Shown here: in pieces, positions 27,657 to 40,414 of the stretch | Layout of the letters: the number at the start of each line of letters is the position of its first letter | How positions within the stretch are numbered: position 1 is the first letter of the stretch | From: a virus | Taxonomy: Duplodnaviria > Caudoviricetes | DNA: 50,500 nucleotides | Virus record (IMG/VR): IMGVR_UViG_3300020202_000093 | Location: 1 to 50,500 of that record | Direction: 5' to 3' (one strand) | The notes under the pieces: model-generated | What the model was told of the DNA's origin: nothing | Databases searched by the model: none | The model's input: the letters and a program-made list of their open reading frames with translations, nothing else | Translations under genes and position numbers: made by a program

Positions 27657-29222
27657 CTATGATCGGCGCCGCTCGCCGGGGGTGAGCACGATCAGGATCG
27701 GCTCAGTCAGATAGAGCACGGAGCGCGCCCCCGCTACCACAATTGGCTGACACGCGGCGACCTCGGCGACGGGGTCGCCGCTGTCGTTTTTGCGGACCGT
27801 GATTCGCTCGCCGATCAGCGTCCGCAGTGCTTGCCGAGCGCGTGCGTGGTCGCGAGTGCGGTCGGCGATATCACGCAGCAGTCCGCGCCACAGGTCGCGC
27901 AGGCCGGGCAGGATCTGAGCTGGCTGCACTGCAGCTGCACTGATCGCTGCCTGTGCCTCAGATACTGCAGTCTCCGCGGCGATCAGCTCGGCGCGGGTGC
28001 TCGGCGTGATGATCCCGGCCCGCAAAGCGGCGAGGATGTTCTCGCGCGTGCGCTCGGCATCCGCGAGCCGGCGCTTGGCGCCATCGATATCCGGCGCTGC
28101 TCGACGCAATGCGGAGGCGACACTGCGACGCAATTGGGCCATTGCAGCGGGGCTGAGCAAGCGCTCCTGTATGCCCGCGAGTAATGCGGCCTCGGCATCC
28201 CGGCGCGCGAATCGCAGCGTGCTGGTGCACGTGCCGCGGTCCTTCGCTGTGGCGCAGCCGTAGCGGTAGCGGTCGATGATGACCATGGGACCACCGCAAT
28301 CGCCGCATCGCAGGATGCCGCTCAACAGATGCGTGCACGGACGACCAGCACGACTGCTTGCTGTGTCGCGCGAAACTCCGGTTAGGCGCGCTTGTGCGGC
28401 TGACCATGTCGCGGCGTCAATGATCGCCAACTCTGGATGCTCTGTCGTGATCCACTCGGCAGACGGACGTTCCTGCCGCACACGCCTGCCGGTGTCTGGG
28501 TGCTTGACCCAGCGCGAGCGATTCCAAATCTGGCGACCGACATAGATCGGGTTAGCCAGGATGCCGATGCCGCGTCGGTGGTCTCCGTAGATCGCGGTCA
28601 TCGCCCACGTCGAGCCACGCGGAGGCGGCACGCGGTCGCGGTTGAGTCCGGCCGCTATCTGCCTCGGACTGCGGCCTGCGATGTACTCGGCATAGATGCG
28701 CCGCACGACGTCAGCACGGGCCGGATCAATCTCGCGCTGCCCTACACCCGCCACGCGGTAGCCGTACGGCAGGCCGCCAGCGCTTGCCCCGCTGAGCGCT
28801 CGGCCTGCGAGGCCGCGGTGCGTCTTGTCGGCCAAGTCGTCCAGATACAGCTCGGACATGAGCCCGCGGAGCCCGACGTCGGCTTTGTGCGACTTCCGCC
28901 CGGTATCAACGCCATCCGACACGCCGATCAACCTGACGCCGGCAAACGTGAGTCGCTTGACCGCCTTCGCTGATTCGATACTGTCTCGGCTCAGACGTGA
29001 TAGGTCGTCGACCAGAATCACGTCATAGCGTTGAGCCTCGGCCAGCAGAGATCGATAGCCCGGCCGGTCTGCACGCGCGCCGCTGATCGCAGCATCGGTG
29101 TAGGCAACAGGATCAGGCCAGCCCTGTCGGGCGCAGTAGGCGCGGCAGTTGCGGAGCTGGTCGTCAAGCGACGCTTCGCGCTGGGCATCGCTGCTGTACC
29201 TGGCATAAGCCGCGACTCTCAT
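27657..29222 (-). CDS. Large serine recombinase (phage integrase)
   Basis: YARYSS catalytic Ser, DAAISG, DLSRLSR, recombinase domain PYGY/ILANPIYVG, and zinc ribbon LLSGILRCGDCGG. Confidence 0.95.
   Translation of the reverse strand: MRVAAYARYSSDAQREASLDDQLRNCRAYCARQGWPDPVAYTDAAISGARADRPGYRSLLAEAQRYDVILVDDLSRLSRDSIESAKAVKRLTFAGVRLIGVSDGVDTGRKSHKADVGLRGLMSELYLDDLADKTHRGLAGRALSGASAGGLPYGYRVAGVGQREIDPARADVVRRIYAEYIAGRSPRQIAAGLNRDRVPPPRGSTWAMTAIYGDHRRGIGILANPIYVGRQIWNRSRWVKHPDTGRRVRQERPSAEWITTEHPELAIIDAATWSAAQARLTGVSRDTASSRAGRPCTHLLSGILRCGDCGGPMVIIDRYRYGCATAKDRGTCTSTLRFARRDAEAALLAGIQERLLSPAAMAQLRRSVASALRRAAPDIDGAKRRLADAERTRENILAALRAGIITPSTRAELIAAETAVSEAQAAISAAAVQPAQILPGLRDLWRGLLRDIADRTRDHARARQALRTLIGERITVRKNDSGDPVAEVAACQPIVVAGARSVLYLTEPILIVLTPGERRRS
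27727..27739 (+). other. Candidate attP core GCCCCCGCTACCA (3' end of initiator tRNA-Met) inside the integrase gene
   Basis: Resembles the proteobacterial tRNA-fMet 3' end including CCA; encodes VVAGA near the integrase C-terminus. Confidence 0.65.
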
Positions 29223-29698: not shown

Positions 29699-29700
29699 TG

Positions 29701-30687
29701 TCAGTGCACCGCGATCCGGTCCAACGGGCTCAGCGTGCCGATGCCTGGCCGCTGCATCACGTGCGTGTAAATCTGTGTCGTGCTCACGTCGGCGTGGCCG
29801 AGCAGCTCCTGCACGGTGCGGATATCGGCACCGGATTCGAGCAGGTGCGTAGCGAAGCAATGGCGTAGAGAATGCGGCGTTACTCGCTTCTCGATGCCGA
29901 CGTATCGCGCTGCGTCGCGTAGAGCGCGCTGGACTGGCCTAGCATCGAGATGATGCCGACGGACGCCGCTGCCGTCTGGGATGCGCTGATATGTCCGCGT
30001 GGCGAACAGCCATTGCCACGGCCATTCATATCGAGCGCGTGGATATTTCCGTGCGATTGCATCGGGCAGTTCAACGTCGACCATGCCGCGCTCGATGTCC
30101 AACTTGTGCAGATGTCGTCTGAAGTCGAGCTGCAGGCGCAACGCGTGCTTGGTCGACTCGGGCAAGCAAGTGATCCGGTCCTTGCCGCCCTTCCCTTGGC
30201 GCACGGTGATGATGTTCCGCTGCATGTCCACGTCTCCGACGCGCAGCCTCAAGCACTCCATCACGCGCATCCCCGTTCCGTAGAGCAGCCGGCAGATTAG
30301 GCCAGGGGTGCCGGCGATGTGCGACAGCAACGCCTGTGTCTCCTGCACGGACAGCACGGTCGGAAGGTACTGGCGCGGCTTTGCGCGGGTGATGTTATCG
30401 AGCCAGGGTAGGGCGACCCCGAGCACTTCACGGTATAGGAACAGCAGCGCGGCGAGCGCCTGGTTCTGCGTGCTCGGCGATACGTGCTGATTGACTGCGA
30501 GGTGCGACAAGAAAGCCTCTACCTCTTCAGCCGCCATATCACGAGGCGGCCGTCCGCCGTGGAAGCGGACGAACTGCACGGTCCATGCCCAGTATGTTCG
30601 CTCCGTTGAGCGAGCATAGTGTTTGGCTCTGATGCGATCGAGGAACACACTGTGCAGTGTGACCTTTGTCGTGATATTGGCGGCCAT
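29701..30687 (-). CDS. intI: Integron integrase (IntI-family tyrosine recombinase)
   Basis: VSPSTQNQALAALLFLY, LYGTGMR..E, RQGKGGKDR, the integron-specific insertion VELPDAIARKYP...WQWLF...RRHH, HSLRHCFATHLLE.G.DIRTVQELLGH and TTQIYTH; catalytic R-K-H-R-H-Y all present. Confidence 0.95.
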   Translation of the reverse strand: MAANITTKVTLHSVFLDRIRAKHYARSTERTYWAWTVQFVRFHGGRPPRDMAAEEVEAFLSHLAVNQHVSPSTQNQALAALLFLYREVLGVALPWLDNITRAKPRQYLPTVLSVQETQALLSHIAGTPGLICRLLYGTGMRVMECLRLRVGDVDMQRNIITVRQGKGGKDRITCLPESTKHALRLQLDFRRHLHKLDIERGMVDVELPDAIARKYPRARYEWPWQWLFATRTYQRIPDGSGVRRHHLDARPVQRALRDAARYVGIEKRVTPHSLRHCFATHLLESGADIRTVQELLGHADVSTTQIYTHVMQRPGIGTLSPLDRIAVH

Positions 30688-30699
30688 GTCTGGCTACTC

Positions 30700-30761
30700 A
30701 ATGAGTTACGGATCAGTCCGGTTCGTTATGCGGCGAACCCGCCGCAGAATTGGCGTTATCC
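30700..30761 (+). other. attI-like site; crossover G|TT at 30755/30756 (GTTATCC)
   Basis: GTTATCC is the exact complement of attC1 R'' (GGATAAC); no attC-type palindrome upstream; 68 bp from the intI start; GTTAY repeats at 30705 and 30725. Confidence 0.75.
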
Positions 30762-31081
30762 GACCGGCCGATCGCCTTCGCGATGGCGTTTCGAGCGGCA
30801 ATGACTTCTTGCTGCGATTCCTTCTCCTCGTCACTGAGGAAGCTCGTATAGCCGTAGCCGTCAAGTAGTGCGACGAGCGCTGCCAGCAGATCGGGCGCAG
30901 CCGAAATTAGACGTGCGTCGCCAAGCACCTCTGCATCAGCGCCTCGCGATGCACGGAAAACCTCTCGGCCGCATGGCGCGTCAACCGTTATCTCCCGCGC
31001 CATTACATGGACTTTCCACGGCCCGGGCGTATGCCGGATAACTATGGCTTCGAGCGGCGACTGTTTCGTATCTGCGTTCAT
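30713..31081 (-). CDS. Cassette 1 ORF: phage HTPGPW-type hypothetical protein
   Basis: HTPGPW...DARLISAAPDLLAAL...ARNAIAKA; starts in the attC1 loop and stops in attI. Confidence 0.8.
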   Translation of the reverse strand: MNADTKQSPLEAIVIRHTPGPWKVHVMAREITVDAPCGREVFRASRGADAEVLGDARLISAAPDLLAALVALLDGYGYTSFLSDEEKESQQEVIAARNAIAKAIGRSDNANSAAGSPHNEPD

Positions 31082-31123
31082 GGTTGATCCTTCGCGGCGT
31101 CGCCGCTCAAGCCGGCGTTGTAT
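31036..31123 (+). other. attC1 (88 bp)
   Basis: GGATAAC-tatgg-CTTCGAGC...GCTCAAG-ccggc-GTTGTAT. Confidence 0.85.
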
Positions 31124-31401
31124 TGCAATCCGAGCGCCTTCGCGGCCTTGGCCTCATGGTGCCGGCAGTGCAGCAATGCCTCGTCATGGAACCCATGCTC
31201 AATTGCATCTGCGGTTAGGCTCAGCCCGCCGAGCAGACACAGAAGCTCGGAGCGTAGTCGCACAATCTCAGCGCGGCACTCGCTCGGATTGGTTGGCAGC
31301 GACCGTAAGCAGTCGTAACACATGGTCTCGCCGTTCATGAACGTCGGCATGTGCCCCGTCGCCTCACAGTAATCGCACTTTTTAATCGGTGGTTCGCGCA
31401 T
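31078..31401 (-). CDS. Cassette 2 ORF: zinc-finger-like hypothetical protein
   Basis: CDYC...CYDC; SD GAGG; stops in the attC1 loop. Confidence 0.7.
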   Translation of the reverse strand: MREPPIKKCDYCEATGHMPTFMNGETMCYDCLRSLPTNPSECRAEIVRLRSELLCLLGGLSLTADAIEHGFHDEALLHCRHHEAKAAKALGLQYNAGLSGDAAKDQP

Positions 31402-31418
31402 TGGCGCCTCGCGTTGCA

Positions 31419-31508
31419 ATACAACTATGCGTTCAAAAAGGACCGCGCTGGTGTTAGGTCGCTTCGTCCGGTTGCCCCGGCGCGCGGCCTTTTAACGCGG
31501 CGTTATCC
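31419..31508 (+). other. attC2 (90 bp)
   Basis: ATACAAC-tatgc-GTTCAAAA...TTTTAAC-gcggc-GTTATCC. Confidence 0.9.
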
Positions 31509-31789
31509 GGCTCTTCATCCAGCTTGCGGCCTTCCGCTTCCCAGTCCACCAGATGCCACCAGGCGATCTCAAAGCACCGCTGCGGTGTGCGGAACGGAAA
31601 CCCGCGCAGGTTCTCCATGTGTGGCTTGCGACGGCATCGCATCCACGGGGGGCCGTACTCAGGACCATCGCTGTCGTCAAACAGCCCTTCGCAGTTCTCG
31701 CACGTCGCAGGCACTGGGTTTCCCGCATGGTCCAGCGCAAGCGGGATAACTGTGCGTTGAACCGGACCGCTCTTAGGCGTCGATTCCAT
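31454..31789 (-). CDS. Cassette 3 ORF: Cys-containing hypothetical protein
   Basis: CENC...C...NLRGFPF...C; starts in the attC3 loop and stops in attC2. Confidence 0.7.
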   Translation of the reverse strand: MESTPKSGPVQRTVIPLALDHAGNPVPATCENCEGLFDDSDGPEYGPPWMRCRRKPHMENLRGFPFRTPQRCFEIAWWHLVDWEAEGRKLDEEPDNAALKGRAPGQPDEAT

Positions 31790-31831
31790 ACCTAACCCTC
31801 GGTTTCGCGGCCGGTTGACGCAGCGTTATGC
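31744..31831 (+). other. attC3 (88 bp)
   Basis: GGATAAC-tgtgc-GTTGAACC...GGTTGAC-gcagc-GTTATGC. Confidence 0.85.
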
Positions 31832-32103
31832 GTCTTGATCGGTTGAACATCGACCACGCGATAGTTCAGCACGTGGCGCTCATCGACTCCGCAGCAGATA
31901 CATGCAACCACTTCCGCGCCTTCGCTGTGTAGGCTTTGCCTTGCCGGGGTTTGCACTGGCACATCAACCCAACTATTCGAGTGCAGCCGCCCAATTACCT
32001 TGTGCACATACATCTCGTTTGGAACGCCATAGCGCTTTTGTTCAATCAGTGCGTAATCACCAAAGTCCATGTCTTCTCTTTCTTCGTAGTCACCCAACCG
32101 CAT
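31792..32103 (-). CDS. Cassette 4 ORF: hypothetical protein
   Basis: ATG inside R'' of attC4, 2 nt after the upstream TAG; GDYALIEQKRYGVPNEMY.HKVIG. Confidence 0.7.
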   Translation of the reverse strand: MRLGDYEEREDMDFGDYALIEQKRYGVPNEMYVHKVIGRLHSNSWVDVPVQTPARQSLHSEGAEVVACICCGVDERHVLNYRVVDVQPIKTHNAASTGRETEG

Positions 32104-32184
32104 AACTATGCGTTTGACCGACCGCCACTGGCATTCGGCGCGTTGTCTGCGCCGCGCTGGCGGTCGTTCAACGCGGCGTTCGGC
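32100..32184 (+). other. attC4 (85 bp)
   Basis: GCATAAC-tatgc-GTTTGACC...GTTCAAC-gcggc-GTTCGGC. Confidence 0.85.
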
Positions 32185-32405
32185 GCCAATCTCAACTTCC
32201 CCTCGGCCCTCCACATTCGGAGAAGCCGGAGGTCTTCGATTCTGTAGTACCAGCCTCGGTGCTTCCCATGGATAGCGACGACCACTTGATACGTGTCGAC
32301 GATTGCGCGAATGTGAAGTGTGCAGTTGTTTGGATTGCCGGCTGAAAGTCGCAGCCGGTAGGCGCGCCCGACGATAGGGGTGAAGTCGTCAGCGCCCCGT
32401 GCCAT
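32106..32405 (-). CDS. Cassette 5 ORF b: hypothetical protein
   Basis: GNPNN..LHIRAIVD..QVV; reads through attC4. Confidence 0.7.
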   Translation of the reverse strand: MARGADDFTPIVGRAYRLRLSAGNPNNCTLHIRAIVDTYQVVVAIHGKHRGWYYRIEDLRLLRMWRAEGKLRLAPNAALNDRQRGADNAPNASGGRSNA

Positions 32406-32407
32406 GG

Positions 32408-32713
32408 TTAAAACTGCTCGCAGCCGGGCGCCACATGCTCGTTATCGACTGGCGGTTGCGGCGGCGGCGGCAGTTCCAGCCCGATGCCAATACAGCCCTC
32501 CTCCGGGTACTCGGTGGAATAAACGACATAACGGTAGTGAGAAACAGAATCCGGGTCAGTTTCCTCGCCTTCGTTTCTCGCACCTTCCGGCGGGTAGGCG
32601 GCGATGGTGAACTCTGCATCGAGTTCGTCGTCGGTCGGGGTGGTAGCGTCATCGATCATCAGCCCGGCAAAACGGGCCAAGTCGCGGATTTCTGCAACGG
32701 TCAAGGTAAGCAT
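32408..32713 (-). CDS. Cassette 5 ORF a: acidic hypothetical protein
   Basis: SD GAGGA; LTVAEIRDLARFAGL...EYPEEGCIGIG. Confidence 0.75.
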   Translation of the reverse strand: MLTLTVAEIRDLARFAGLMIDDATTPTDDELDAEFTIAAYPPEGARNEGEETDPDSVSHYRYVVYSTEYPEEGCIGIGLELPPPPQPPVDNEHVAPGCEQF

Positions 32714-32749
32714 TATTTATTCCTCATGGCTTTGGTCTGTCGTGTTGGC

Positions 32750-32836
32750 GCCGAACTATGCGTTTAACCGGACGCCGGAAAAGTATCTGGCTTCGAGCCA
32801 GCGTCCGGGCCGGCGCCGGTTAACGCGGCGTTAGCC
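32750..32836 (+). other. attC5 (87 bp)
   Basis: GCCGAAC-tatgc-GTTTAACC...GGTTAAC-gcggc-GTTAGCC. Confidence 0.9.
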
Positions 32837-33088
32837 ATCAATGGCAGCCAATGCGTCGGCCAGCGTTTTGCGCACAAGGCTCAGCGCCTCAGCCTTCGCT
32901 TCGTCGGCGCCTTTGCTGTTCAGCGGTTTCCCGTCAAAGAACGGGGAAGCGTTCAATACCCAAACGTCCGGCGGGTGGTAAATGTGCCGAGTCACCACCA
33001 CCCGCAACAAGCCGGCTTCTGATTGGTATGTTCTTGGCGTGCGATCAGTCTCGCCCTGCCGTCGGCTCGTGATGTCTTTCCACTGCAT
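32831..33088 (-). CDS. Cassette 6 ORF: hypothetical protein (alternative start 33154 in the attC6 loop)
   Basis: SD GAGGA before MQWKDITS; stop TAA lies within R' of attC5. Confidence 0.75.
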   Translation of the reverse strand: MQWKDITSRRQGETDRTPRTYQSEAGLLRVVVTRHIYHPPDVWVLNASPFFDGKPLNSKGADEAKAEALSLVRKTLADALAAIDG

Positions 33089-33108
33089 GCTACGTTCCTC
33101 GTGTTGAT

Positions 33109-33195
33109 GACTAACTATGCGTTTAACCGGACGCCGGAACGTTGCTCGGCTCATCCGGGCCTTTCTTGCCGGCGCCGGTTGGCGCGGCGTTGTAC
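33109..33195 (+). other. attC6 (87 bp; two mismatches in L')
   Basis: GACTAAC-tatgc-GTTTAACC...GGTTGGC-gcggc-GTTGTAC. Confidence 0.8.
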
Positions 33196-33196
33196 G

Positions 33197-33949
33197 TCAT
33201 AGCATGCTCTCCTGCACCGGCGGGGCTTCAACAGCAGGCAGCGGCAATTCCTGGCGTTGCCGCGCGCCAGTTATGCGTGGCACCGCGATGCCGTTGAAGT
33301 ATTCGGCCTCACGCTCGATGCCAATGAATCGCCGCCCCTCGATGTGCGCAGCTTCGCCTGTTGTCCCGCTTCCCATGAAGCAATCCATAACCATGTCGCC
33401 CGGCTTTGTTGTCAGCCGGATAAGGTGGCGCATAAGGTCTACGGGCTTTTCGGCTGCGTGCTCGGTAGTCTTGTTGTTTCCCGCCATCCACTTGCAGCGG
33501 TAAATGTCGGTTGCGCTCCGATTCTCGATTTTGGCTTTCGGCATGCCGGCGAGAAACACAACTTCGTACGTCGGCCGGAGTTGGCGCGGCCCAGCAGGGC
33601 CGATCCATTCCTTGTCCCATATCAGCAGTGAATCCACAGGCCACTTGATCTTGCTAAAGGCATAAAGCAGCGTAGGTATGCTGCGCCAGTTTCCGAACAC
33701 GCAGGCATACCCTTCTTGCTTCAATGTCCGGCGCGCACGTTTCAGCCACTCTGCGAACCACCATGCGCTATTTCCCATGTCGGCCCAACCGCCGGCCTTC
33801 GCGCTTGCGTCGCCAGTGGAGATTGCGCCTATCATGTATGGCGGGTCGGTTATAACGGCGTCAACGCTCATTGGCGGCAGTTCCGCCATAACGTCAAGGC
33901 AATCGCCGTGCCACAGTTCCGCATTTCCAATGATTACTTTTTCGGCCAT
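33197..33949 (-). CDS. Cassette 7 ORF: orphan N6A/N4C DNA methyltransferase (beta class)
   Basis: GDCLDV, TDPPY, H.AEKPV.L, DCFMGSGTTG and FIGIE motifs. Confidence 0.92.
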   Translation of the reverse strand: MAEKVIIGNAELWHGDCLDVMAELPPMSVDAVITDPPYMIGAISTGDASAKAGGWADMGNSAWWFAEWLKRARRTLKQEGYACVFGNWRSIPTLLYAFSKIKWPVDSLLIWDKEWIGPAGPRQLRPTYEVVFLAGMPKAKIENRSATDIYRCKWMAGNNKTTEHAAEKPVDLMRHLIRLTTKPGDMVMDCFMGSGTTGEAAHIEGRRFIGIEREAEYFNGIAVPRITGARQRQELPLPAVEAPPVQESML

Positions 33950-33960
33950 GTCGTGGTTAC

Positions 33961-34053
33961 GTACAACTATGCGTTCAAGCCGACCCTGCGGAGTCAGCGG
34001 TGTCGTTCTGCCCGTTCGTGGCCGCCGCAGGGCGGCTTAACGCGGCGTTAGCG
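33961..34053 (+). other. attC7 (93 bp, the most canonical site)
   Basis: GTACAAC-tatgc-GTTCAAGC-cgaccctgcgg...ccgcagggcg-GCTTAAC-gcggc-GTTAGCG. Confidence 0.93.
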
Positions 34054-34326
34054 GGCATTGATTGCGTTGCCGCAAGTGTTGGCGGCGACGGCTTTAGCGT
34101 GGAAATGGTCGCCATCTCGCTTCATTGTCCGCGCATACTCGACCGCCTTCTCAAAGCACACCTTCGCGCACGCCTCGCGCTCGGCCTTCACCTGCCGGGC
34201 AACTTCGGCGTGGATCGCAGCAAGCGTTCGCTGCGCTAATCCGTCTTCGGTGTCATGGGATCGCCCTTCCTCGCCCTCTGCGTAGGCGGCATCCCAGTAG
34301 GTGCTTAGTAGTTCATCAAGCGTCAT
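34048..34326 (-). CDS. Cassette 8 ORF: phage AEREAC-type hypothetical protein
   Basis: YWDAAYAEG, AEREACAKVC...CGNAINAR; SD GAGGG overlaps R'' of attC8. Confidence 0.75.
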   Translation of the reverse strand: MTLDELLSTYWDAAYAEGEEGRSHDTEDGLAQRTLAAIHAEVARQVKAEREACAKVCFEKAVEYARTMKRDGDHFHAKAVAANTCGNAINAR

Positions 34327-34335
34327 TGCATCGCC

Positions 34336-34423
34336 CTCTAACTATGCGTTCGACCCGCCCCGACCATCCGGCGCAGCATCGTCTTTGGCCTCGCCCTCGG
34401 GGCGGTTCAACGCGGCGTTGAGC
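34336..34423 (+). other. attC8 (88 bp)
   Basis: CTCTAAC-tatgc-GTTCGACC...GTTCAAC-gcggc-GTTGAGC. Confidence 0.85.
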
Positions 34424-34424
34424 G

Positions 34425-34757
34425 TCATCGGCAAGCGTCCTGCATATTCAGGAAGCGAATAAGCCCGCCCCTATCAGTGGGAACGTCTATCCGTTCTATG
34501 CCGCTCGGCTCTTTGTATCGCTCAGGGTCTGACGCCAGGTATTCACGAAGCTTTCTTGCAGCGTCACGGCGGCTCGAAAAATATTCGATGAGCCGCCCAT
34601 CCACCATTGAGCCTTCGTCAATGCACCAGATTCGCCATAACTTCATGTCGATGTCCTCGCAGTGACGCCCAACAAGCCGTTTAAGCGGGCTGCCTGTATG
34701 CGTTTCGCGCAGCCGACCAACTATGGGTTTGAGCGGCTTCTGTTGTGCCTTGCTCAT
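34425..34757 (-). CDS. Cassette 9 ORF: hypothetical protein (internal start 34646 with SD GAGGA likely)
   Basis: MKLWRIW...VPTDRGGLIRFLN; the N-terminal extension is encoded by two attC left arms. Confidence 0.7.
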   Translation of the reverse strand: MSKAQQKPLKPIVGRLRETHTGSPLKRLVGRHCEDIDMKLWRIWCIDEGSMVDGRLIEYFSSRRDAARKLREYLASDPERYKEPSGIERIDVPTDRGGLIRFLNMQDACR

Positions 34758-34796
34758 GCTTGCTTCTCCGTGTCGCCGATCAAGCCAGCGTCAATG
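34667..34796 (+). other. Truncated attC9 (left arm only) fused to degenerate attC10 (34715-34796, R' = GTC)
   Basis: GCCCAAC-aagcc-GTTTAAGC, then GACCAAC-tatgg-GTTTGAGC...GATCAAG-ccagc-GTCAATG. Confidence 0.65.
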
Positions 34797-34972
34797 GCCG
34801 TTCCTGATGCAACGTCAACAATTAAGCGAAGGCGATTGCGATGTGTCTGAGCTTCTGTCCGGAGCCGGATAATCTCGTCGGCAGCTATCCTCAGCTGAGT
34901 TCGCAGGGCCTCCTTCCTCGGTTGCTTGATCCGCCTGGGCAACTTCGGGAACAGATCGGATCCGCGGCTCAC
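34754..34972 (-). CDS. Hypothetical early protein; C-terminus lies in degenerate attC10
   Basis: Coupled at both ends; ends IDAGLIGDTEKQA. Confidence 0.6.
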   Translation of the reverse strand: MSRGSDLFPKLPRRIKQPRKEALRTQLRIAADEIIRLRTEAQTHRNRLRLIVDVASGTAIDAGLIGDTEKQA

Positions 34973-35229
34973 GCATCAACTCCGAGATAGCGCAGATCAA
35001 TCTCATCGACCTTGTTGCGCAGCATGTTCCGTGCTCCGCGAACTACCCTAGCGATCGTTAGTCGACTCTCAAAATCGGAGAACGTCGCGAGGCCGAGATT
35101 GACCTTTCCGGTCAAGTCTCGACGGAACAGGCGATAGACCAGAATGCGTCGGTCTGGATCGAAGAGGCGCCCCCAACTGAATCGGCTCGACTTGCCCGGC
35201 TGGCGCGGGATGAGTTGTCGGTTACGCAT
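34969..35229 (-). CDS. Hypothetical early protein
   Basis: MRNRQLIPRQPG..SRFSWGR; coupled. Confidence 0.6.
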   Translation of the reverse strand: MRNRQLIPRQPGKSSRFSWGRLFDPDRRILVYRLFRRDLTGKVNLGLATFSDFESRLTIARVVRGARNMLRNKVDEIDLRYLGVDA

Positions 35230-35380
35230 TCGCGAAATCCATCTCTGCAATCGGTGTATTGAAGAGGTCTGGCGTGTAGGGGGTGCGCTGTTGCGGATCT
35301 GGCGGAGCGAGTCCGCACTTGTCAGGTGTGTCGCACTCAATCTTCCCTGCACAGATGAAGCAGTCGCCAGTCAGGTTCAT
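35222..35380 (-). CDS. Small Cys-rich hypothetical protein
   Basis: CFICAGKIECDTPDKC; ATGA-coupled. Confidence 0.45.
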   Translation of the reverse strand: MNLTGDCFICAGKIECDTPDKCGLAPPDPQQRTPYTPDLFNTPIAEMDFANA

Positions 35381-35868
35381 GCGGTCGCTCGTATGGTTGG
35401 ACGCGCTTGATAGGTGCGCGGACGATGGGACGGGGGTTCGCACAGTTCTGCCCACGTGCGTCGCCCATAAAAGCGGAGGCGGCCTTCCAGCGTGGAGTCC
35501 TTTACGCTCGCGGGGACTCGGCTGCGGATCTGGGTGAACGTCATCAGCTCACCATCGATTTCGTAGACCGTGGTCTTGCGTGGGACCGTGAGTCCTTCAG
35601 CTTCGATCCAGCTGCGCACTGTTCTCCGCGGGATGCCGAGTGCGGTGCTGACCTCCGACAGTGACGCGCCGGAGACGAAGCGCTGGATAGCGCGATCGCG
35701 GCATTGATCCGGCCATCCCTTGCGATGTGGCGCCAGCTTCACGCGCGCTCGCGCTGCTGCGCGGCGGACAGAATCAACGCTGCGGCCCGTCTTGCGAGCG
35801 ATCTGCGCAGCGGTCAGGTCTGGTCTGAGCAATGCCACCTCGGTGGTCTTCCAATGCCGCATGTTCAT
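35377..35868 (-). CDS. Multi-HTH DNA-binding protein
   Basis: TAAQIARKTGRSVDSV and SLSEVSTALGIPRRTVRSW. Confidence 0.7.
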   Translation of the reverse strand: MNMRHWKTTEVALLRPDLTAAQIARKTGRSVDSVRRAAARARVKLAPHRKGWPDQCRDRAIQRFVSGASLSEVSTALGIPRRTVRSWIEAEGLTVPRKTTVYEIDGELMTFTQIRSRVPASVKDSTLEGRLRFYGRRTWAELCEPPSHRPRTYQARPTIRATA

Positions 35869-36503
35869 GCCGGCACCTCGAACCGTTCCGGCAAGTGTTG
35901 CTGAGCGAAGCGGTAGAAATCCGCTGCCAGCACCGCGCAGTCGTCGGCGAGCCCTGGATAGCGGTGCTGTTCCAGCCGATGCCCGCCGTGAACGACATAG
36001 TGCGATTCGTCGGCGCTAGCGTTGATGTCGCGAAGCATCGTGTCAGATGCTTCTCGCACTTCGAAAACGTTCCAGCGGAATCGATCGGCTTGGAAGAGTT
36101 CTAGGTACAGGCGCCACTGGTAGCCGGCGAAGTAGCCTTCGGCGTCCATCTGCGCAGTCGTCTTGTGATCGTCGATGCGGCGGCCTAGGATGCTGTCGAC
36201 TTGGCCGCTGACACTCAGGCATCCGCCATCGACTATGTATGCCTTGCTGGCTCGGAGTTCTCGGATCAGTGGCAGTTCGAGTTCAATGTCGGCTTGCACA
36301 TGGAACACGAAGCCATTGGCGCGCAGCGTGTCGAACTCGCCAGGCTCGGCCAGTTCAAGCGCGCGATGGAACGCAGTGCCAGCGGCCATGTGCTCGCTCG
36401 GCCGTTCCTGCCCGCGCAGGTGTGCGAGCAGGGCGTCGAGACTGGCGTCGTCATCCTCTCGCCAGCGGCGGAAGGACTCCAGTTCCGAGACGCGCGCAAG
36501 CAT
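35865..36503 (-). CDS. PD-(D/E)XK-like exonuclease (partner of Sak4)
   Basis: AGTAFHRALE, SGQVD...IDDHKTT and YQWRLYL; downstream of the AAA_24 ATPase. Confidence 0.7.
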   Translation of the reverse strand: MLARVSELESFRRWREDDDASLDALLAHLRGQERPSEHMAAGTAFHRALELAEPGEFDTLRANGFVFHVQADIELELPLIRELRASKAYIVDGGCLSVSGQVDSILGRRIDDHKTTAQMDAEGYFAGYQWRLYLELFQADRFRWNVFEVREASDTMLRDINASADESHYVVHGGHRLEQHRYPGLADDCAVLAADFYRFAQQHLPERFEVPA

Positions 36504-36506
36504 GGC

Positions 36507-37409
36507 TTAAGCGGCCTTTGCCGGCGCTGCATAGCGCGCTGCGGCCTTGTCGAAGGCCAAGCCTAGCTTGGTGGCTCGGTCATGCAGGAGAGCCGCTACG
36601 GTCTTCCCAGCGGCCTTGGCGTCGACGATGGCGGCGTTGATCGAGTCGGCATCTTCCATGCCGGCAATGTCCGCGCGCCAGCGCTCGAGCGTTTCCTGCG
36701 CTGCGCGCTGTTCTTCGGTCAGCGTGTTGAGCCGATCCTTGGTCTGCTGGATTACGCTGGCGAGGAAGCCGGCGAACTCCGGGCGGTCGCAGTGCGGAAT
36801 CTGCAACGCTTCCAGCTGGCCAGGATTCTTCCCGAACGCCGCATCGCTCGGTGAGAAATTCAGGACGCGCTGACCGTTTCGGATCGTGATCCGCCCCATC
36901 GCATCAGCTGCTTTGTAAATCTCGCCTTTGCTGCCGCCCTGAACGTCGAGCCGTTCAATCACTTCGTCGCCGTTGCGCTGCTCGTCCATGTGCGCGATCA
37001 GTACGACATCCTTGCCGAAGCCGTTCAGCAGCTTGAGGAACGAGATGAACCGCGCCTTGAGTTCGCCGAAGCCCTGCAGCGTCAGTGCGCCGCCGCGTCC
37101 CAGCTTCGCGTTCCCGCGAATAATGTCGGCGGCTAGAACGTCAAGCGCTCTGCCGGCCGTGTCCATGATAATGGTCTGAAAGTCGGCCAAGTCGTCCGCG
37201 GTGATGTTTGCGACATCTTCCCAGCGATCGACCAGCACAGCGTCTTTGCGGCCGTGTGCGCGATGCGCACCGCGGTCGAAGTCAAGCAGCAGCGGGCGAT
37301 CTGCGGTGAAGGCGAGGGAGGTCTTGCCCAGCCCTGGTGGGCCATAGATGACGATGTTCAGGCGATCGACGCGGATCGGGTCTGCGGCGCGGACGATTCG
37401 GAGGGACAT
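36507..37409 (-). CDS. Sak4-like (AAA_24) recombination ATPase
   Basis: IYGPPGLGKTSLA, LLLDFDRG, TIIMDT and VVLIAH motifs. Confidence 0.85.
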   Translation of the reverse strand: MSLRIVRAADPIRVDRLNIVIYGPPGLGKTSLAFTADRPLLLDFDRGAHRAHGRKDAVLVDRWEDVANITADDLADFQTIIMDTAGRALDVLAADIIRGNAKLGRGGALTLQGFGELKARFISFLKLLNGFGKDVVLIAHMDEQRNGDEVIERLDVQGGSKGEIYKAADAMGRITIRNGQRVLNFSPSDAAFGKNPGQLEALQIPHCDRPEFAGFLASVIQQTKDRLNTLTEEQRAAQETLERWRADIAGMEDADSINAAIVDAKAAGKTVAALLHDRATKLGLAFDKAAARYAAPAKAA

Positions 37410-37429
37410 GATTGATTCCTGTGTTGGGG

Positions 37430-37608
37430 TGGATGCGGGCCGGTCGCTAGCCGGCGTCCTTGTACTTCGGGCGGACTCGGGTTCCCAAGGTTGCGTGCAC
37501 CCTACGGAGCACTCCCGACCTCGATGCGCGGGTTCAGCGGGAGCCCCCACCTATGCCGTCATCCGTGTCTGTAGTCCCGCGTGTCTGCATATCCACGCCG
37601 CCGCATCC
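37430..37608 (-). ncRNA. tRNA-like structured RNA element (not a canonical tRNA)
   Basis: 8-bp closing stem, a 5-bp D-like arm, and a 5-bp/7-nt T-like arm stacked on the closing stem; fills the intergenic gap. Confidence 0.5.
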
Positions 37609-37616
37609 GTTGATCG

Positions 37617-38117
37617 TTACGCCGCTTGCTGCAGTTCAGCCACTGGCGGGAGGACGCTGAGTTCGATGTCGCGCTGCTGCAGGCTGCACAGCACGCCCTG
37701 CTCGTGGACGTCGGGATGGACCGCAGCCGAGAACGTGATCGCAACCGAGCCGCCTTCGAGCGGTTCGATGACGAAGCGCTTCAGCGTCGCGGCCTCGAAC
37801 GTCAGCACGTCGGACAAATCCAGCCCTGTGTGGATTTCGAGGCGATAGCCCGGCCACTCATCCTGCAGGCGCAACGGTTCCAGGCGCGGGAACCGAACTG
37901 CGGTCAATTGCTCAGGATCAAGCAGGTCTTGCTGGTCGCCGAGACGCGGCTTGCGAAACAGTGCGGCGCGCAGTTCCGGGTCGATCGAATCGAGGATGCC
38001 GCTGTTCGCATGGAGTTCGAACTTGATATCGCCGGCATCTTCGAGTTCGTCGCCGCAGCGTTCCTTGCGCGGGTTATAGTTCGCGAGCTTGGTCTTGACT
38101 TTCGTCAGCTCGAACAT
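37617..38117 (-). CDS. Conserved phage hypothetical protein
   Basis: YNPRKERCGDE...DIKF...LDSIDPELRAALF...EPLEGGSV. Confidence 0.75.
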   Translation of the reverse strand: MFELTKVKTKLANYNPRKERCGDELEDAGDIKFELHANSGILDSIDPELRAALFRKPRLGDQQDLLDPEQLTAVRFPRLEPLRLQDEWPGYRLEIHTGLDLSDVLTFEAATLKRFVIEPLEGGSVAITFSAAVHPDVHEQGVLCSLQQRDIELSVLPPVAELQQAA

Positions 38118-38121
38118 GGCG

Positions 38122-38352
38122 TTAGCCCTCGGCCTGCGATTCGGTTGCCGGCTCGTCGACAGCCTTCTCGATCTCGACACCAGCGCGGGCCAGATCGAAC
38201 ACCGCCGATTGATTCGCGACACTGACGACGAAGCGGCTGCGCGCGGCGAAGTTCAGCGCTTGCTGTTTGTTCGCTGCGCTGATCAGGCGCGGCTTGGCGT
38301 CAAGCGTCAGCTTGTCCTGTACGGCGTAGAGTCGGGTGGTTGCGTTTCTCAT
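38122..38352 (-). CDS. Hypothetical protein
   Basis: RLYAV...RLISAANKQQAL...GVEIE; SD AGGAG. Confidence 0.7.
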   Translation of the reverse strand: MRNATTRLYAVQDKLTLDAKPRLISAANKQQALNFAARSRFVVSVANQSAVFDLARAGVEIEKAVDEPATESQAEG

Positions 38353-38715
38353 TGGTGCTCCTGTGGGGCGGGGAAAAGCGGAACCAGAGATCGGCTCCGC
38401 GGGATCGGAAGGTGAGTCAGCCGAGGTGGCAGGGTGCTCAGAGCGGCCTGTATACGCGTTCCGGCCTTTGCCCTTAGTGCATGCTCCGGGTCGCGCGCCA
38501 AGCCTGTCCTACGCAGTTGCAGGCGGTATGCCGCGGTTCGGTCAATAACGGTTGTGCTCATGCCGGCTTCCACGTCCAACTACGCGCATGTCCTGCTCGG
38601 CCGTGCCGGTTCCATTCGCGAAGCACGACGCCTGCCGCTTGTTCGGGGGTGCGCGCCCATGCGAGGGACTCGTACGTCTTGCCTGTGCTTAGGTTGAGCG
38701 TGATGCGATAGGCGT

Positions 38716-38979
38716 TCACGCGGCCCCCGGTAGATCGTCGCTGCCGATGTTGATCGCTGCATCCACGGCACGCCGAGCAGCGCGATCAACCGTCTCGCCA
38801 GCGCGGAAGAACTTGGCAGCGGCACGTGACGCGCCGCAGGCGAGGGCACGGCATCCGTACTGGATCATCCGGTTGTGCGCTATTCGCCGAGCGGCGAACT
38901 CGCGAGCTTCCTGCAGTTCGTACGGACCAGGGCCTGCATTGGCGTTGGCGGGGCGGAGCAGGGGGACGATCGTGCTCAT
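38716..38979 (-). CDS. Hypothetical protein
   Basis: ATGA-coupled in the early-left operon. Confidence 0.55.
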   Translation of the reverse strand: MSTIVPLLRPANANAGPGPYELQEAREFAARRIAHNRMIQYGCRALACGASRAAAKFFRAGETVDRAARRAVDAAINIGSDDLPGAA

Positions 38980-39314
38980 CCTTTTTTCCTCAGTGATGCA
39001 GCGTTGATCAGTTCACGAACTGCCTTCTTTTGTTGAATCGGCCACCTGAGATACGTCGAGACTCGCTTTGAAGACCAGTCGAATTGATCTATGAGCGATT
39101 CAGCGAGCGTTGTGGCGGCGCTAATGGAAGGGAGATAGCGGTCAATTGCGTATCCGGTCGACACGTGCGTTAGGGTCAGGCACGTTGGGTCGCCGATGGT
39201 CTGGTGTATGGCGACCGGTCCTACGTATTTCGCTACTTCGACGCTTCGAATACTCGACCGTCTGCGGTTGATCGGCGAAAGCGTGCACACCTCGATATAT
39301 TTCGGCGTGCTCAT
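38976..39314 (-). CDS. Hypothetical protein
   Basis: AIHQ...TLTHVSTGY; coupled. Confidence 0.6.
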   Translation of the reverse strand: MSTPKYIEVCTLSPINRRRSSIRSVEVAKYVGPVAIHQTIGDPTCLTLTHVSTGYAIDRYLPSISAATTLAESLIDQFDWSSKRVSTYLRWPIQQKKAVRELINAASLRKKG

Positions 39315-39664
39315 GCGGCTTCCTCGAACAGGAACAGTCCGGTGCCGTCGCGATACTCACGAAGCAACTGCGCTTCAGCGATTTCGCGGCAATGCGAATC
39401 CAAAGCTGCGTCGAACTTCTGCGCGAACGGCAGCAAATCGCCGTTGCGCAGCAGGGTGTAAAGCTCGCCGGACGCCTCGCGGCTCATCTGGCTGTGCCAG
39501 TCGCCCATCAGCATGTCGACGGCATCGGAACTCAGGCGCGCTCGAATCTGCGCGGCTCGGGCAGAGACATAGGGCTGGATCGCTTCGTGCGCCGCGTCCT
39601 GCGTCGCTTCGGCGATGGTGCGGTCGGCGTAGGGCTGTTCGAGCCAGCGATCGTGTGCGCTCAC
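39311..39664 (-). CDS. Hypothetical protein
   Basis: HDRWLEQPY N-terminus; coupled at both ends. Confidence 0.6.
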   Translation of the reverse strand: MSAHDRWLEQPYADRTIAEATQDAAHEAIQPYVSARAAQIRARLSSDAVDMLMGDWHSQMSREASGELYTLLRNGDLLPFAQKFDAALDSHCREIAEAQLLREYRDGTGLFLFEEAA

Positions 39665-40331: not shown

Positions 40332-40371
40332 CGCCTCTTCCTCGTCCCGGCGGGGTAGGCCGGGTGAGGTA

Positions 40372-40414
40372 AGCATCACATAGCGTGATACTGGCTGTCA
40401 ACACGTAGCGTGAT
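40372..40414 (-). promoter_or_regulatory. PL promoter with operators OL1/OL2
   Basis: TTGACA on the minus strand (40401-40396) with a GATGCT -10; 15-bp dyads ATCAC-ATAGC-GTGAT (40375) and AACAC-GTAGC-GTGAT (40400). Confidence 0.75.

What the first reader, a model, noticed from the sequence alone, without database searches (positions are those of the whole stretch)
29701..34796. A complete integron built into the early operon of a temperate phage
Seen: an intact IntI with all catalytic residues and the integron-specific insertion, an attI-like G|TT crossover at 30755, and eight intact 85-93 bp attC sites sharing the frame AAC-tatgc-L''...L'-gcggc-GTT. Each cassette's R'' is complementary to the R' at its own left edge over 7-12 bp, for example GTTGTATTGCAA/TTGCAATACAAC, GTTCGGCGCCAA/TTGGCGCCGAAC and GTTGTACGT/ACGTACAAC. 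That is the footprint expected of circular cassettes inserted by IntI. Established: integrons are normally chromosomal or carried on transposons and plasmids. Here there is no transposon or IS context, and the phage already has a separate serine integrase. The cargo is typical phage accessory genes (HTPGPW and AEREAC types, a DNA MTase), not host or resistance cassettes. Inference: this is a native phage cassette-capture and shuffling system for the accessory early region. I am not aware of this architecture being described, but I could not search.
Basis: partly seen in the sequence, partly recalled or inferred. Interest (0 to 1): 0.97.

Follow-up and report, generated by a model that had tools for sequence, protein, structure and literature searches.

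The report
Phage integron with mirror-oriented gene cassettes
A complete integron (a gene-capture device normally found in bacteria) sits inside a soil temperate phage genome, and it belongs to a phage-associated lineage whose cassette genes all point the opposite way from bacterial integrons, so the phage's own early transcription would read them.

Summary
The window is a complete lambda-like temperate phage, a circle of about 50.4 kb. It carries an intact integron integrase (TIGR02249, 421.9 bits against a cut-off of 265), an attI crossover at G30755|TT, and nine attC sites, not eight. The nine cassettes span 30756-34790.

The ORFs run in the same direction as intI, the phage integrase and the early-left operon. 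Known class 1 and Shewanella phage M16-3 integrons scored canonical with the same models.

The same mirror layout recurs in IMG/VR contigs that carry IntI: 56 cassettes co-directional with intI and 8 divergent, all 8 in one host-type locus. In bacterial genome loci the counts were 6 and 38. The window's IntI falls in a clade of viral contigs (SH-aLRT 96), usually placed just upstream of a phage integrase. The attI motif is conserved and cassette content varies between loci.

Integrons in phages were already reported (Qi et al. 2023), but as canonical, host-derived ones. Recombination activity is not shown, and the array is identical in two soil samples. Verdict: a real, new variant of a known kind, and probably a phage accessory-gene exchange platform.

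The parts
27657..29222 (-). Phage large serine integrase. It lies immediately downstream of intI and runs in the same direction (context).
   Evidence: Pfam Resolvase + Recombinase + Zn_ribbon_recom. Relatives at 63-68% identity sit at the ends of proviral contigs.
29701..30687 (-). intI, integron integrase, 328 aa, intact.
   Evidence: TIGR02249 421.9 bits against cut-off 265. 52% identity to IntI1 over 307 aa with no gaps. Closest relatives are 80-82% identical.
30688..30757 (+). attI region. The crossover is G30755|TT30756-57, preceded by a second GTTAT box about 22 nt upstream.
   Evidence: GTT invariant and a GAATT-containing motif conserved across 7 loci. The left edge is complementary to R'' of attC1 over 8 nt. 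No attC model hit at this place.
30756..31117 (+). Cassette 1, with attC1 at 31040-31119. ORF 30713-31081 (-), 122 aa. Its start codon and Shine-Dalgarno sequence lie in the attC1 loop, and its last 14 codons run on into attI.
   Evidence: phrog_1273 E 1.7e-13. The Atlas lead is Phage_P22_Y8K6, score 0.92.
31118..31502 (+). Cassette 2, with attC2 at 31423-31504. ORF 31078-31419 (-), 113 aa.
   Evidence: Own R'/R'' identical at 12 of 12 positions.
31503..31825 (+). Cassette 3, with attC3 at 31748-31827. ORF 31454-31789 (-), 111 aa.
   Evidence: Model hit of 49.6 bits although the site was not in the training set..
31826..32178 (+). Cassette 4, with attC4 at 32104-32180. ORF 31792-32103 (-), taking the ATG that abuts R''.
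   Evidence: phrog_18349 E 9.2e-27 on residues 43-131 of the longer reading.. The start codon was read.
32179..32830 (+). Cassette 5, with attC5 at 32754-32832. It holds two ORFs: 32106-32405 (-) of 99 aa and 32408-32713 (-) of 101 aa.
   Evidence: Homologues of the second ORF sit in other viral arrays, L025 and L080, at other positions.
32831..33189 (+). Cassette 6, with attC6 at 33113-33191. ORF 32831-33154 (-). Its TAA stop is the complement of the TTA of the R' core.
33190..34047 (+). Cassette 7, with attC7 at 33965-34049. ORF 33197-33949 (-), 250 aa, an N6/N4 DNA methyltransferase.
   Evidence: PF01555 E 9.9e-38. Codon score 39.7 on the - strand. Homologues lie upstream of intI in 10 other viral loci.
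34048..34417 (+). Cassette 8, with attC8 at 34340-34419. ORF 34048-34326 (-), 92 aa. Its stop is again the R' TTA.
   Evidence: The nearest Atlas clusters are unnamed viral proteins.
34418..34790 (+). Cassette 9, with attC9 at 34719-34792, whose R' reads GTC. ORF 34425-34757 (-), start codon uncertain.
   Evidence: Model hit of 68.8 bits. Weak codon score of 3.3..
34754..40379 (-). Phage early-left operon that reads into the array: a 72-aa ORF, an HTH protein at 35377-35868, phrog_34697 at 35865-36503, a Sak4-like annealing protein at 36507-37550, and others (context).
   Evidence: All of these genes are on the - strand. The CI-like repressor is at 42687-43355.

Best explanation
This is a structurally complete integron of a phage-associated IntI lineage. 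It sits at the distal end of the early-left (PL-like) operon of a lambda-like temperate phage, directly upstream of the phage's own integrase.

The recombination geometry is canonical. intI is divergent from the attC top strand, attI lies next to the 5' end of intI, and the attC sites carry their extra bases on the bottom-strand '' arm. The cargo, however, is mirrored: every cassette ORF is encoded on the attC bottom strand.

The proposed mechanism is as follows.
- IntI would insert circular cassettes at attI in the usual orientation (inferred).
- In that orientation the ORFs are read by phage early transcription coming from the far end of the array. That transcription runs through the cassettes into intI and the phage integrase (inferred from gene order; no promoter was located).
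- The element would then serve as an exchange platform for small phage accessory genes such as a DNA methyltransferase and P22-ea-like proteins.
- Its cassette pool would be kept separate from bacterial integrons at the level of expression, because of the opposite orientation.

Shown here: the anatomy, the orientation, the lineage, the conserved placement, and the different cassette content in relatives. Inferred: IntI activity, the source of transcription, and cassette exchange.
For: Anatomy of the window:
- IntI, attI, nine attC sites and the own-cassette R'/R'' footprints are all present.
- The attC model scores 49.6-82.6 bits on the + strand and 7-17 bits on the - strand at the same sites.
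- The folded - strands carry their bulged bases in the 3' half.
- A codon log-odds score calls the - strand ORF in 9 of 9 cassettes.
- The methyltransferase and two PHROG hits confirm the - strand by homology.
- Start codons with Shine-Dalgarno sequences lie inside each cassette's own attC (read).

Controls:
- In the class 1 arrays of phage P1 the same model puts the attC sites on the ORF strand, just 3' of aadA, cmlA, estX and dfrA.
- In Shewanella phage M16-3 the attC hits share the strand of the annotated cassette ORFs, which are divergent from intI.

The phage itself:
- It has a gpA terminase, a lambda-type portal, capsid E, a tape measure protein, a CI-like repressor and a Sak4-like protein.
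- The sequence closes into a circle of 50,373 bp.
- The same sequence, including the intI-attI-C1 and C6-C9 stretches, occurs with 0 differences in a second soil run.

Lineage and relatives:
- 32 of 32 tested IMG/VR records have a full-length IntI above the family cut-off, and 8 of them are at least 90% complete.
- In 26 viral loci, 86 cassettes gave 56 co-directional with intI, 8 divergent (all in L031) and 22 ambiguous.
- In 29 bacterial loci, 82 cassettes gave 6 co-directional, 38 divergent and 38 ambiguous.
- The window's IntI lies in a 32-row clade (SH-aLRT 96) of 22 viral contigs, 6 close relatives and 3 genome loci, none of them with the canonical layout (FastTree gives support 89).
- A co-directional phage integrase follows intI in L025, L005 and L003 (phrog_1) and in further loci.
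- The attI motif is conserved while the cassettes differ.
- Homologous ORFs sit at different array positions in different loci.
Against: - No recombination event was seen. The parts of the array covered in two soil runs are identical, and the last attC has a GTC core.
- No promoter-like site was found on either strand in 27000-42000 (0 found against 3.7 expected), so the source of transcription is inferred from gene order only.
- 68 phages with a related Sak4/phrog_34697 early module have no IntI and no attC array. The integron is therefore a mobile module in this phage group, not ancestral to it.
- Orientation calls in other loci rest on a codon statistic trained on this window. 22 of 86 viral and 38 of 82 bacterial cassettes were ambiguous.
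- IMG/VR contigs are predicted viruses.
Confidence: 0.7

Rival explanations
1. The phage picked up a fragment of its host's chromosomal integron recently and passively, as described for the Vibrio anguillarum phages and Shewanella M16-3. The phage makes no adapted use of it.
For: Published phage integrons are of this kind (PMC9892861, sections 3.1-3.3 read). 68 phages with a related early module lack any integron. The attC family resembles those of proteobacterial chromosomal arrays enough for the model to hit them.
Against: The IntI clade holds viral contigs and no bacterial locus with the canonical layout. All nine ORFs are antisense to their attC, a layout seen in 6 of 44 called cassettes in bacterial loci against 56 of 64 in viral loci. 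The integron lies between the phage integrase and the early genes, not at a host junction, and the genome is a closed circle. The cargo hits phage protein families.
Confidence: 0.1
2. The array is a frozen relic that is no longer recombined. IntI is kept for another job, such as Xer-like resolution of phage multimers, or is simply not yet decayed.
For: The array is identical in two soil samples. The terminal attC has a GTC core. Five of nine ORFs run past their cassette edge into the neighbouring site.
Against: IntI is intact and scores well above the family cut-off. Eight attC sites keep the AAC/GTT cores and the paired L boxes, with compensatory changes. Own R'/R'' complementarity is preserved at up to 12 of 12 positions. 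Related loci with the same attI motif carry other cassettes, and shared genes sit at other positions.
Confidence: 0.15
3. The contig is an assembly chimera that joins a phage to a bacterial integron.
For: The run's own unitigs break inside intI and inside the methyltransferase gene, where depth rises to 26-31 against about 17 elsewhere. This shows that similar sequences exist in the sample.
Against: Contigs with 0 differences bridge several junctions in run X1: serine integrase to the 3' end of intI (27710-29823), intI through attI to cassette 7 (30064-33480), and cassette 7 to the early genes and around the circle. In the second run, contigs bridge intI-attI-C1 and C6-C9 into the backbone. 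The same placement next to a phage integrase recurs in other contigs.
Confidence: 0.03

Closest known systems
Integron of Shewanella prophage vB_SspM_M16-3 (MZ568829; Qi et al. 2023, PMC9892861)
   Same: A complete integron (intI, attI and an attC array) inside a temperate phage genome, near one end of the prophage.
   Different: M16-3 is canonical. Its annotated cassette ORFs and its attC hits are on one strand, divergent from intI, and a LexA site is annotated before intI. The paper gives its IntI as 95.3% identical to the chromosomal IntI of S. oneidensis, which makes it host-type. The window has mirrored ORFs, an IntI from a viral-contig clade, and no LexA site was looked for here.
Vibrio anguillarum phage Va_90-11-286_p16 and the class 1 integrons on P1-like phage-plasmids (PMC9892861, sections 3.1-3.2 read)
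   Same: Integrons carried by functional temperate phages.
   Different: The paper describes these as a subset of the host superintegron, or as Tn402/IS26-associated class 1 mosaics with resistance genes. In the P1 record the attC sites follow the ORFs on the same strand. The window has no resistance cargo, and no transposase family reached its threshold among the neighbours that were scanned.
Chromosomal integrons of soil and freshwater Proteobacteria (Xanthomonadales and Burkholderiales loci L240-L319)
   Same: IntI at 49-58% identity, the same attC architecture recognised by one model, and intI divergent from the attC top strand.
   Different: In those loci the cassette ORFs are mostly on the attC strand (38 divergent from intI against 6 co-directional). 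The two loci that were co-directional only (L240, L244) fall inside the window's viral clade.
Inverted integron-integrase group (Treponema type; passages of PMC4889954 read)
   Same: intI and the cassette genes point the same way.
   Different: In that group intI itself is flipped to the orientation of the attC sites, and the array lies 3' of it. Here intI keeps the canonical orientation relative to attI and attC, and it is the ORFs that are flipped.
Non-essential accessory ('ea'/moron) region of the lambda/P22 PL operon (recalled knowledge)
   Same: The same genomic position, between the recombination genes and int. It holds small dispensable genes read from the early-left promoter. Cassette 1 resembles a P22 protein family (a lead only).
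   Different: In lambda and P22 these genes are not flanked by attC sites and no dedicated recombinase is known to move them.

Membership tests
Integron (complete) | IntI-type tyrosine recombinase with the integron-specific additional domain | tested here: met
   TIGR02249 421.9 bits against a cut-off of 265, full length. Gap-free alignment to IntI1 across the insertion.
Integron (complete) | attI site adjacent to the 5' end of intI, with a G|TT crossover | tested here: met
   GTT at 30755-30757, 68 nt from the intI start. It is invariant within a motif conserved in 7 loci, and the sequences diverge after it. It is complementary to R'' of the first attC. Function was not assayed.
Integron (complete) | One or more attC sites (R''-L''...L'-R', imperfect palindrome with extrahelical bases), all in one orientation | tested here: met
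   Nine hits on the + strand at 49.6-82.6 bits. 15 consensus pairs, 7 of them compensatory. The model also recognises class 1 attC sites. IntegronFinder's own model was not available.
Integron (complete) | Cassette ORFs on the attC top strand, readable from a Pc promoter in intI or attI | tested here: not met
   9 of 9 cassettes encode on the opposite strand. No promoter-like site was found (uninformative).
Integron (complete) | IntI-dependent cassette excision and insertion | not testable with these tools
   Only contigs of two runs were available, and they showed no cassette-precise joint.
Inverted integron-integrase group | [quoted passage not shown] | tested here: not met
   intI is on the - strand and the attC top strand is the + strand.
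Class 1, 2 or 3 mobile integron | IntI1/2/3 orthologue and a Tn402/Tn7-type transposon context | tested here: not met
   52% identity to IntI1. The IntI1-type equivalog model NF011946 scored 329 bits, below its cut-off of 435. The flanks are phage genes.
CALIN (attC cluster without integrase) | No intI nearby | tested here: not met
   intI is 68 nt from attI. Arrays of the same attC family in L320-L322 do look CALIN-like within the parts that were fetched.

The most novel reading that the evidence does not exclude
Temperate phages maintain their own widespread class of 'mirror' integrons. The recombination machinery is the bacterial one, but the cassette genes are encoded on the attC bottom strand. 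They are therefore expressed only from the phage early-left operon, which also drives intI. This would create a phage-only pool of exchangeable accessory and anti-defence genes, silent if a cassette lands in a bacterial integron and vice versa. It would also place the recombinogenic bottom strand on the non-template strand, possibly coupling cassette folding to early transcription and phage replication.
Probability: 0.5. Interest if true: 0.9.

Novelty: new variant of a known kind. Interest (0 to 1): 0.8.

Why it matters
Integrons are regarded as bacterial devices, and the few reported in phages look like captured host elements. A phage-resident lineage with a conserved position next to the phage integrase, an inverted coding orientation and phage-type cargo would matter in three ways. 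It would mean phages use site-specific cassette exchange to vary their accessory early region, which would partly explain mosaicism in that region. It would provide a natural experiment on how cassette orientation, transcription and attC strand choice interact. It would also show that integron surveys which assume ORFs lie on the attC strand mis-describe such elements. All of this can be tested directly with standard attC x attI assays and transcriptomics.

Tried and rejected
- Close phage relatives in GenBank phages: none found. Only short hits of 1-2% coverage to integrase and methylase genes.
- IntI as a single query against IMG/VR: no relative confirmed. An alignment of IntI relatives was needed.
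- Phages sharing the serine integrase (9 loci) share nothing else with the window in 10 kb.
- Phages sharing the Sak4 module (68 loci) show no IntI. There were 2 weak tyrosine-recombinase hits and 1 attC-model hit at E 0.0011.
Neither returned the 80-82% identical IntI relatives. The best was L240 at 72%.
- My crude AAC...GTT palindrome scanner found only 6 of the window's 9 sites plus 2 false hits. It served only as a first look.
- ORF length alone could not call strands in GC-rich loci: 38 of 92 cassettes were ambiguous. I replaced it with a codon log-odds score.
- The promoter and terminator scan was uninformative.
- Bottom-strand folds of single sites are only moderately better than shuffles (z from -0.35 to -4.70).
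- Read laying showed no cassette-precise joints.
  - Loose ends at 31155 and 33211, seen in both runs, lie 37 and 21 nt inside cassettes. They probably belong to other genomes with similar genes, and remain unresolved.
  - A joint 28025->35476 with 16 intervening letters appears in both runs, but the lengths of its sides are unknown. I do not interpret it.
- Supplements of PMC9892861 were not seen. They hold the list of 17 CALINs and the annotations, which may bear on whether any published phage array has antisense ORFs.
- Literature searches for phage integrons with reversed cassettes found only Qi et al. 2023 as direct prior art. From IntegronFinder 2.0 (PMC9024848) and Cury et al. 2016 (PMC4889954) I read only the passages found by term search. 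From PMC13366799 I read only the passages with 'integron'.

Full report
WHAT THE WINDOW IS

The window is the whole of one IMG/VR virus record, 50,500 bases, with a CheckV completeness of 100 and 62.8% G+C. The + strand from 62 to about 26 kb carries a lambda-type morphogenesis module:
- gpA-type large terminase at 381-2468
- lambda-family portal at 3125-4837
- capsid protein E at 7013-8143
- tape measure protein at 16301-20071

The - strand from about 40.4 kb down to 27.7 kb is one run of co-directional genes. It includes a Sak4-like annealing protein at 36507-37550, phrog_34697 at 35865-36503 and an HTH protein at 35377-35868. The finding follows, and then a large serine integrase at 27657-29222. 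A CI-like repressor (HTH plus peptidase S24) is at 42687-43355, and a DnaB-like helicase is at 46796-48319.

The last ~127 bases of the window repeat its start (printed). A 44,654-base contig from a public soil run passes from 33459 through the window's end and start to 27739, closing a circle of 16,001 + 34,372 = 50,373 bases. This is therefore a complete temperate phage genome without host flanks.

CHECKING THE OBSERVATION

IntI. The ORF 29701-30687 (-) of 328 aa matches NCBIfam TIGR02249 'integron integrase' over the whole profile, at 421.9 bits against a cut-off of 265. The XerC, XerD and XerA models stay far below their cut-offs. It aligns to the IntI1 of phage P1 record MH445380 at 52% identity over 307 residues without a single gap. 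The integron-specific insertion is therefore there, and the columns holding the conserved R, K, H, R, H and Y residues are identical. Which of these are catalytic is recalled knowledge.

attC sites. RNAalifold gives a consensus of an AAC/GTT R box and a 12-pair L box with one bulge, and 7 of the 15 pairs show compensatory changes. A covariance model built from the eight (R1) was run over the whole window with filters off. It found them at 68.8-82.6 bits. It also found a ninth site, not in its training set, at about 31742-31835 (49.6 bits, E 2.7e-12). The next best hit scored 16.9 bits.

Cassette coordinates. The attI G is at 30755.
- C1 30756-31117
- C2 31118-31502
- C3 31503-31825
- C4 31826-32178
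- C5 32179-32830
- C6 32831-33189
- C7 33190-34047
- C8 34048-34417
- C9 34418-34790

Footprints. The left edge of each cassette matches the reverse complement of its own R'' at a mean of 9.9 of 12 positions, against 6.8 for the 72 non-own pairings. None of 20,000 random re-pairings reached the observed sum. The last attC ends GTC instead of GTT.

The attC model is strongly strand-specific in the window: + strand 49.6-82.6 bits, - strand 7-17 bits at the same places. The folded - strands carry their bulged bases in the 3' half. Yet the genes are on the - strand.
- The methyltransferase (PF01555, E 9.9e-38) and the two PHROG matches (phrog_1273 and phrog_18349) are - strand ORFs.
- A codon log-odds score trained on 11 family-validated genes of this phage picks a - strand ORF in 9 of 9 cassettes. 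The - strand scores are 3.3 to 39.7, and the best + strand score is 2.2.

Two positive controls show what canonical looks like with the same models.
- In the class 1 arrays of P1 record MH445380, the R1 hits lie on the strand of the annotated aadA, cmlA, estX, psp and dfrA genes, immediately 3' of them.
- In Shewanella phage M16-3, the broader model R2 puts 7 attC hits on the strand of the annotated cassette ORFs, divergent from intI. It puts 2 more on the strand of the ORFs of that phage's second array.

The R'/R'' complementarity cannot tell the two possible cassette registers apart. Three other things can.
- The model and bulge asymmetry.
- The position of intI and attI. No attC structure lies to the left of 30755.
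- In the canonical register each ORF's Shine-Dalgarno sequence and start codon fall inside its own cassette, often in the loop of its own attC. Only the 3' ends spill over: five ORFs run 34-82 nt into the next site, and C1 runs 14 codons into attI (read).

In C6 and C8 the stop codon is the complement of the TTA of the R' core.

RELATIVES BY PHAGE BACKBONE

- GenBank phages hold nothing close. The nearest terminases are about 40% identical, from Vibrio VP882 and Halomonas phiHAP-1.
- Nine IMG/VR contigs have a 63-68% identical serine integrase, mostly at a contig end, but share nothing else.
- Sixty-eight contigs share the Sak4/phrog_34697 early module at 48-69% identity, many with the same helicase and repressor synteny. 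None of them has an IntI. There were 2 weak tyrosine-recombinase hits at 26-36% identity and 1 attC-model hit at E 0.0011.

The integron is therefore a module present in this phage but not ancestral to its backbone group.

RELATIVES BY IntI

The protein database holds IntIs 80-82% identical to this one, two of them on contigs of 47,466 and 44,357 bases. I could not fetch those contigs.

An alignment-based scan of IMG/VR confirmed 389 recombinase relatives among 426 pattern matches and returned the best 80 loci, at 40-63% identity. Of 32 of these records that I tested, 32 carry a full-length, stop-free match above the TIGR02249 cut-off (341-476 bits), and 8 of the 32 are at least 90% complete.

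A second model (R2, built from 32 hits of R1) found 95 attC sites in these 80 loci. All were on the strand opposite intI, which is the canonical intI-attC geometry.

Scoring the cassettes bounded by these sites gave the following counts.

| Set | Loci | Cassettes | Co-directional with intI | Divergent | Ambiguous |
|---|---|---|---|---|---|
| IMG/VR viral loci | 26 | 86 | 56 | 8 (all in L031, a locus with a long host-type array) | 22 |
| Bacterial and MAG loci from GTDB genomes | 29 | 82 | 6 | 38 | 38 |

An attC-independent version scored the coding strand in the 2.5 kb upstream of intI.
- Viral: 52 co-directional, 1 divergent, 10 ambiguous, 16 with no room to score.
- Genome: 23 co-directional, 23 divergent, 12 ambiguous, 20 with no room to score.

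Independent of codon statistics, homologues of the window's methyltransferase lie upstream of intI on the intI strand in 10 other viral loci.

PLACEMENT

In L025, L005 and L003 the gene right after intI, in the same direction, is a phage tyrosine integrase (phrog_1, E 1e-28 to 1e-62). In L025 it is followed by a convergent endolysin and tail genes, and a primase and an HNH endonuclease lie upstream.

With five integrases as queries, 9 of 70 viral loci that had room show a co-directional integrase within 1.5 kb after intI, three of them the queries' own loci. L044 has a serine integrase 38% identical to the window's. Among genome loci the count was 1 of 72, and that one was the query itself. 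One search adds weaker same-strand recombinase matches 0.6-2.5 kb downstream of intI in ten records. The window's order, early genes - cassettes - intI - phage integrase, is thus recurrent. In other viral loci intI is followed by terminase and portal genes instead.

PHYLOGENY

A FastTree of 164 IntIs was built from the window, 6 close proteins, 79 viral loci and 78 genome loci. The 80 metagenome loci were left out. It places the window in a 33-row group (support 89) made of 24 viral loci, the 6 close proteins and 2 genome loci, both of them co-directional. Two further groups of 34 and 13 rows are purely viral.

I then ran an IQ-TREE quick search (LG+G4) on 75 rows that I selected from that tree. 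It gives the window a 32-row clade with SH-aLRT 96: 22 viral loci, 6 close proteins and L240, L244 and L241. No bacterial locus with the divergent layout falls in it.

VARIATION BETWEEN ARRAYS

- attI is conserved across the window, L025, L005, L013, L008, L003 and L244. The GTT is invariant, a GAATT lies 2-3 nt before it, and a GTTA-type box lies further upstream. What follows differs in every locus.
- L240 has the nearest IntI for which DNA is available (72% identity). It has the same attI motif, two short attC sites and ORFs starting next to R'' and reading towards intI. It has no homologue of any window cassette.
- Clustering the ORFs upstream of intI (316 ORFs, 34 clusters) shows the same families at different distances from intI in different loci. 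One family lies 105 and 118 bp from intI in L005 and L013 but 1875 bp in L025. The methyltransferase family spans 33 to 2510 bp.
- An exact-pattern scan for the window's attC signature found three more viral contigs. They carry arrays of the same attC family (R1 up to 74 bits) with ORFs again on the opposite strand, but no IntI in the parts fetched. One of them, L320, shares the window's tail genes at 31-47% amino-acid identity.

POPULATION DATA

Two soil-metagenome runs from different samples and studies hold the region, with word shares of 1.00 and 0.78. The first may be the source of this DNA. In the second, contigs with 0 differences cover 30175-30913 (5' end of intI, attI, start of C1) and 33042-35094 (end of C6 to beyond C9), together with backbone segments. 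The phage and its array thus exist unchanged in a second sample. That argues against chimerism, but it gives no sign of ongoing shuffling. Contigs cannot show rare variants.

CARGO

Of the 10 ORFs in or abutting the array that were scanned against PHROGs (9 in cassettes plus the abutting backbone ORF 34754-34972), two hit PHROG families of unknown function. The tenth cassette ORF, scanned separately, is a DNA methyltransferase. Eight of these ten cassette ORFs were scanned against padded Pfam/NCBIfam thresholds without a hit. In the ESM Atlas, C1 resembles the Phage_P22_Y8K6 family (score 0.92; structural TM 0.64/0.78), and the nearest clusters to C8 are unnamed viral proteins. These are leads only. 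Methyltransferases were also noted in phage CALINs by Qi et al. (section 3.4).

LITERATURE

Qi et al. 2023 (PMC9892861; abstract and sections 3 to 3.4 read, supplements not seen) screened 10,705 phage genomes. They found 3 complete integrons and 1 In0 in temperate phages, plus 17 CALINs. They interpreted the complete ones as host superintegron fragments, class 1 mosaics, or a Shewanella-type integron in a cryptic prophage. Six searches turned up no report of phage integrons with cassette genes antisense to attC, nor of a phage-specific IntI clade. The inverted integron-integrase group (passages of PMC4889954) is a different arrangement.

HOW IT MOST LIKELY WORKS

Shown: a canonical intI-attI-attC geometry with mirrored ORFs, embedded at the 3' end of the early-left gene run and followed by the phage integrase.

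Inferred:
- Early-left transcription reads cassette 9 through cassette 1 into intI and the integrase. IntI would then be made on infection or induction, when phage DNA is replicating and other phages or prophages may be present in the cell.
- Cassettes enter at attI in the usual orientation, which for this pool is the expressed one.
- Cassettes from bacterial integrons would land antisense and stay silent, and phage cassettes would be silent in bacterial integrons.

Speculative: because the recombinogenic bottom strand is here the non-template strand, transcription might favour its folding.

CAVEATS

- Activity is untested.
- No promoter was located.
- Orientation calls outside the window rest mainly on a codon statistic and leave many cassettes ambiguous.
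- IMG/VR contigs are predictions.
- The nearest relatives could not be inspected.

Noticed in passing
window 1-140 and 50360-50500: The last ~127 bases repeat the start of the window, and a run contig closes a 50,373-base circle, although the record is classed as 'linear'.
   Followed up: partly
window 40629-41741 (+): A ParA-like partition protein (phrog_164) sits in a phage that also has a serine integrase. The nearest cultured terminases belong to Vibrio VP882 and Halomonas phiHAP-1 at about 40% identity, which I recall are plasmid-like prophages. I did not ask whether this phage can also persist extrachromosomally.
   Followed up: no
window 32831-32833 and 34048-34050: In cassettes 6 and 8 the ORF's TAA stop codon is the complement of the TTA of the attC R' core (G|TTA). 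The recombination core doubles as the stop codon in the mirrored orientation.
   Followed up: partly
window 32179-32830: Cassette 5 holds two adjacent small ORFs of 99 and 101 aa with no family hit. The second has homologues as a single-ORF cassette in L025 and L080. I did not test whether the pair is a toxin-antitoxin-like couple.
   Followed up: no
window 31155 and 33211; 28025->35476: Both soil runs hold contigs that match up to 31155, or from 33211 onwards, and then continue with other sequence. Both also hold a record joining 28025 to 35476 with 16 other letters between. These could be other genomes with similar genes, or a variant phage. This is unresolved.
   Followed up: no
L320 10400-12577, L321 9900-11081, L322 8000-11142: Three other viral contigs carry arrays of the same attC family with antisense ORFs but no IntI in the fetched part. 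The arrays run to the contig ends, and L320 shares the window's tail genes.
   Followed up: partly
L032, L037, L038 (IMG/VR loci): In this viral IntI subgroup the attC-like palindromes found by my crude scan lie downstream of intI, and in L037 so does a methyltransferase homologue. This may be an inverted-integrase arrangement in phages. Model R2 did not hit these sites, so their strand is unknown.
   Followed up: no
window 29272-30339 and 33010-33543: Summed contig depth in the likely source run rises from about 17 to 26-31 over intI and to 27.7 over part of the methyltransferase gene. The soil therefore holds other genomes with near-identical stretches of these genes.
   Followed up: no
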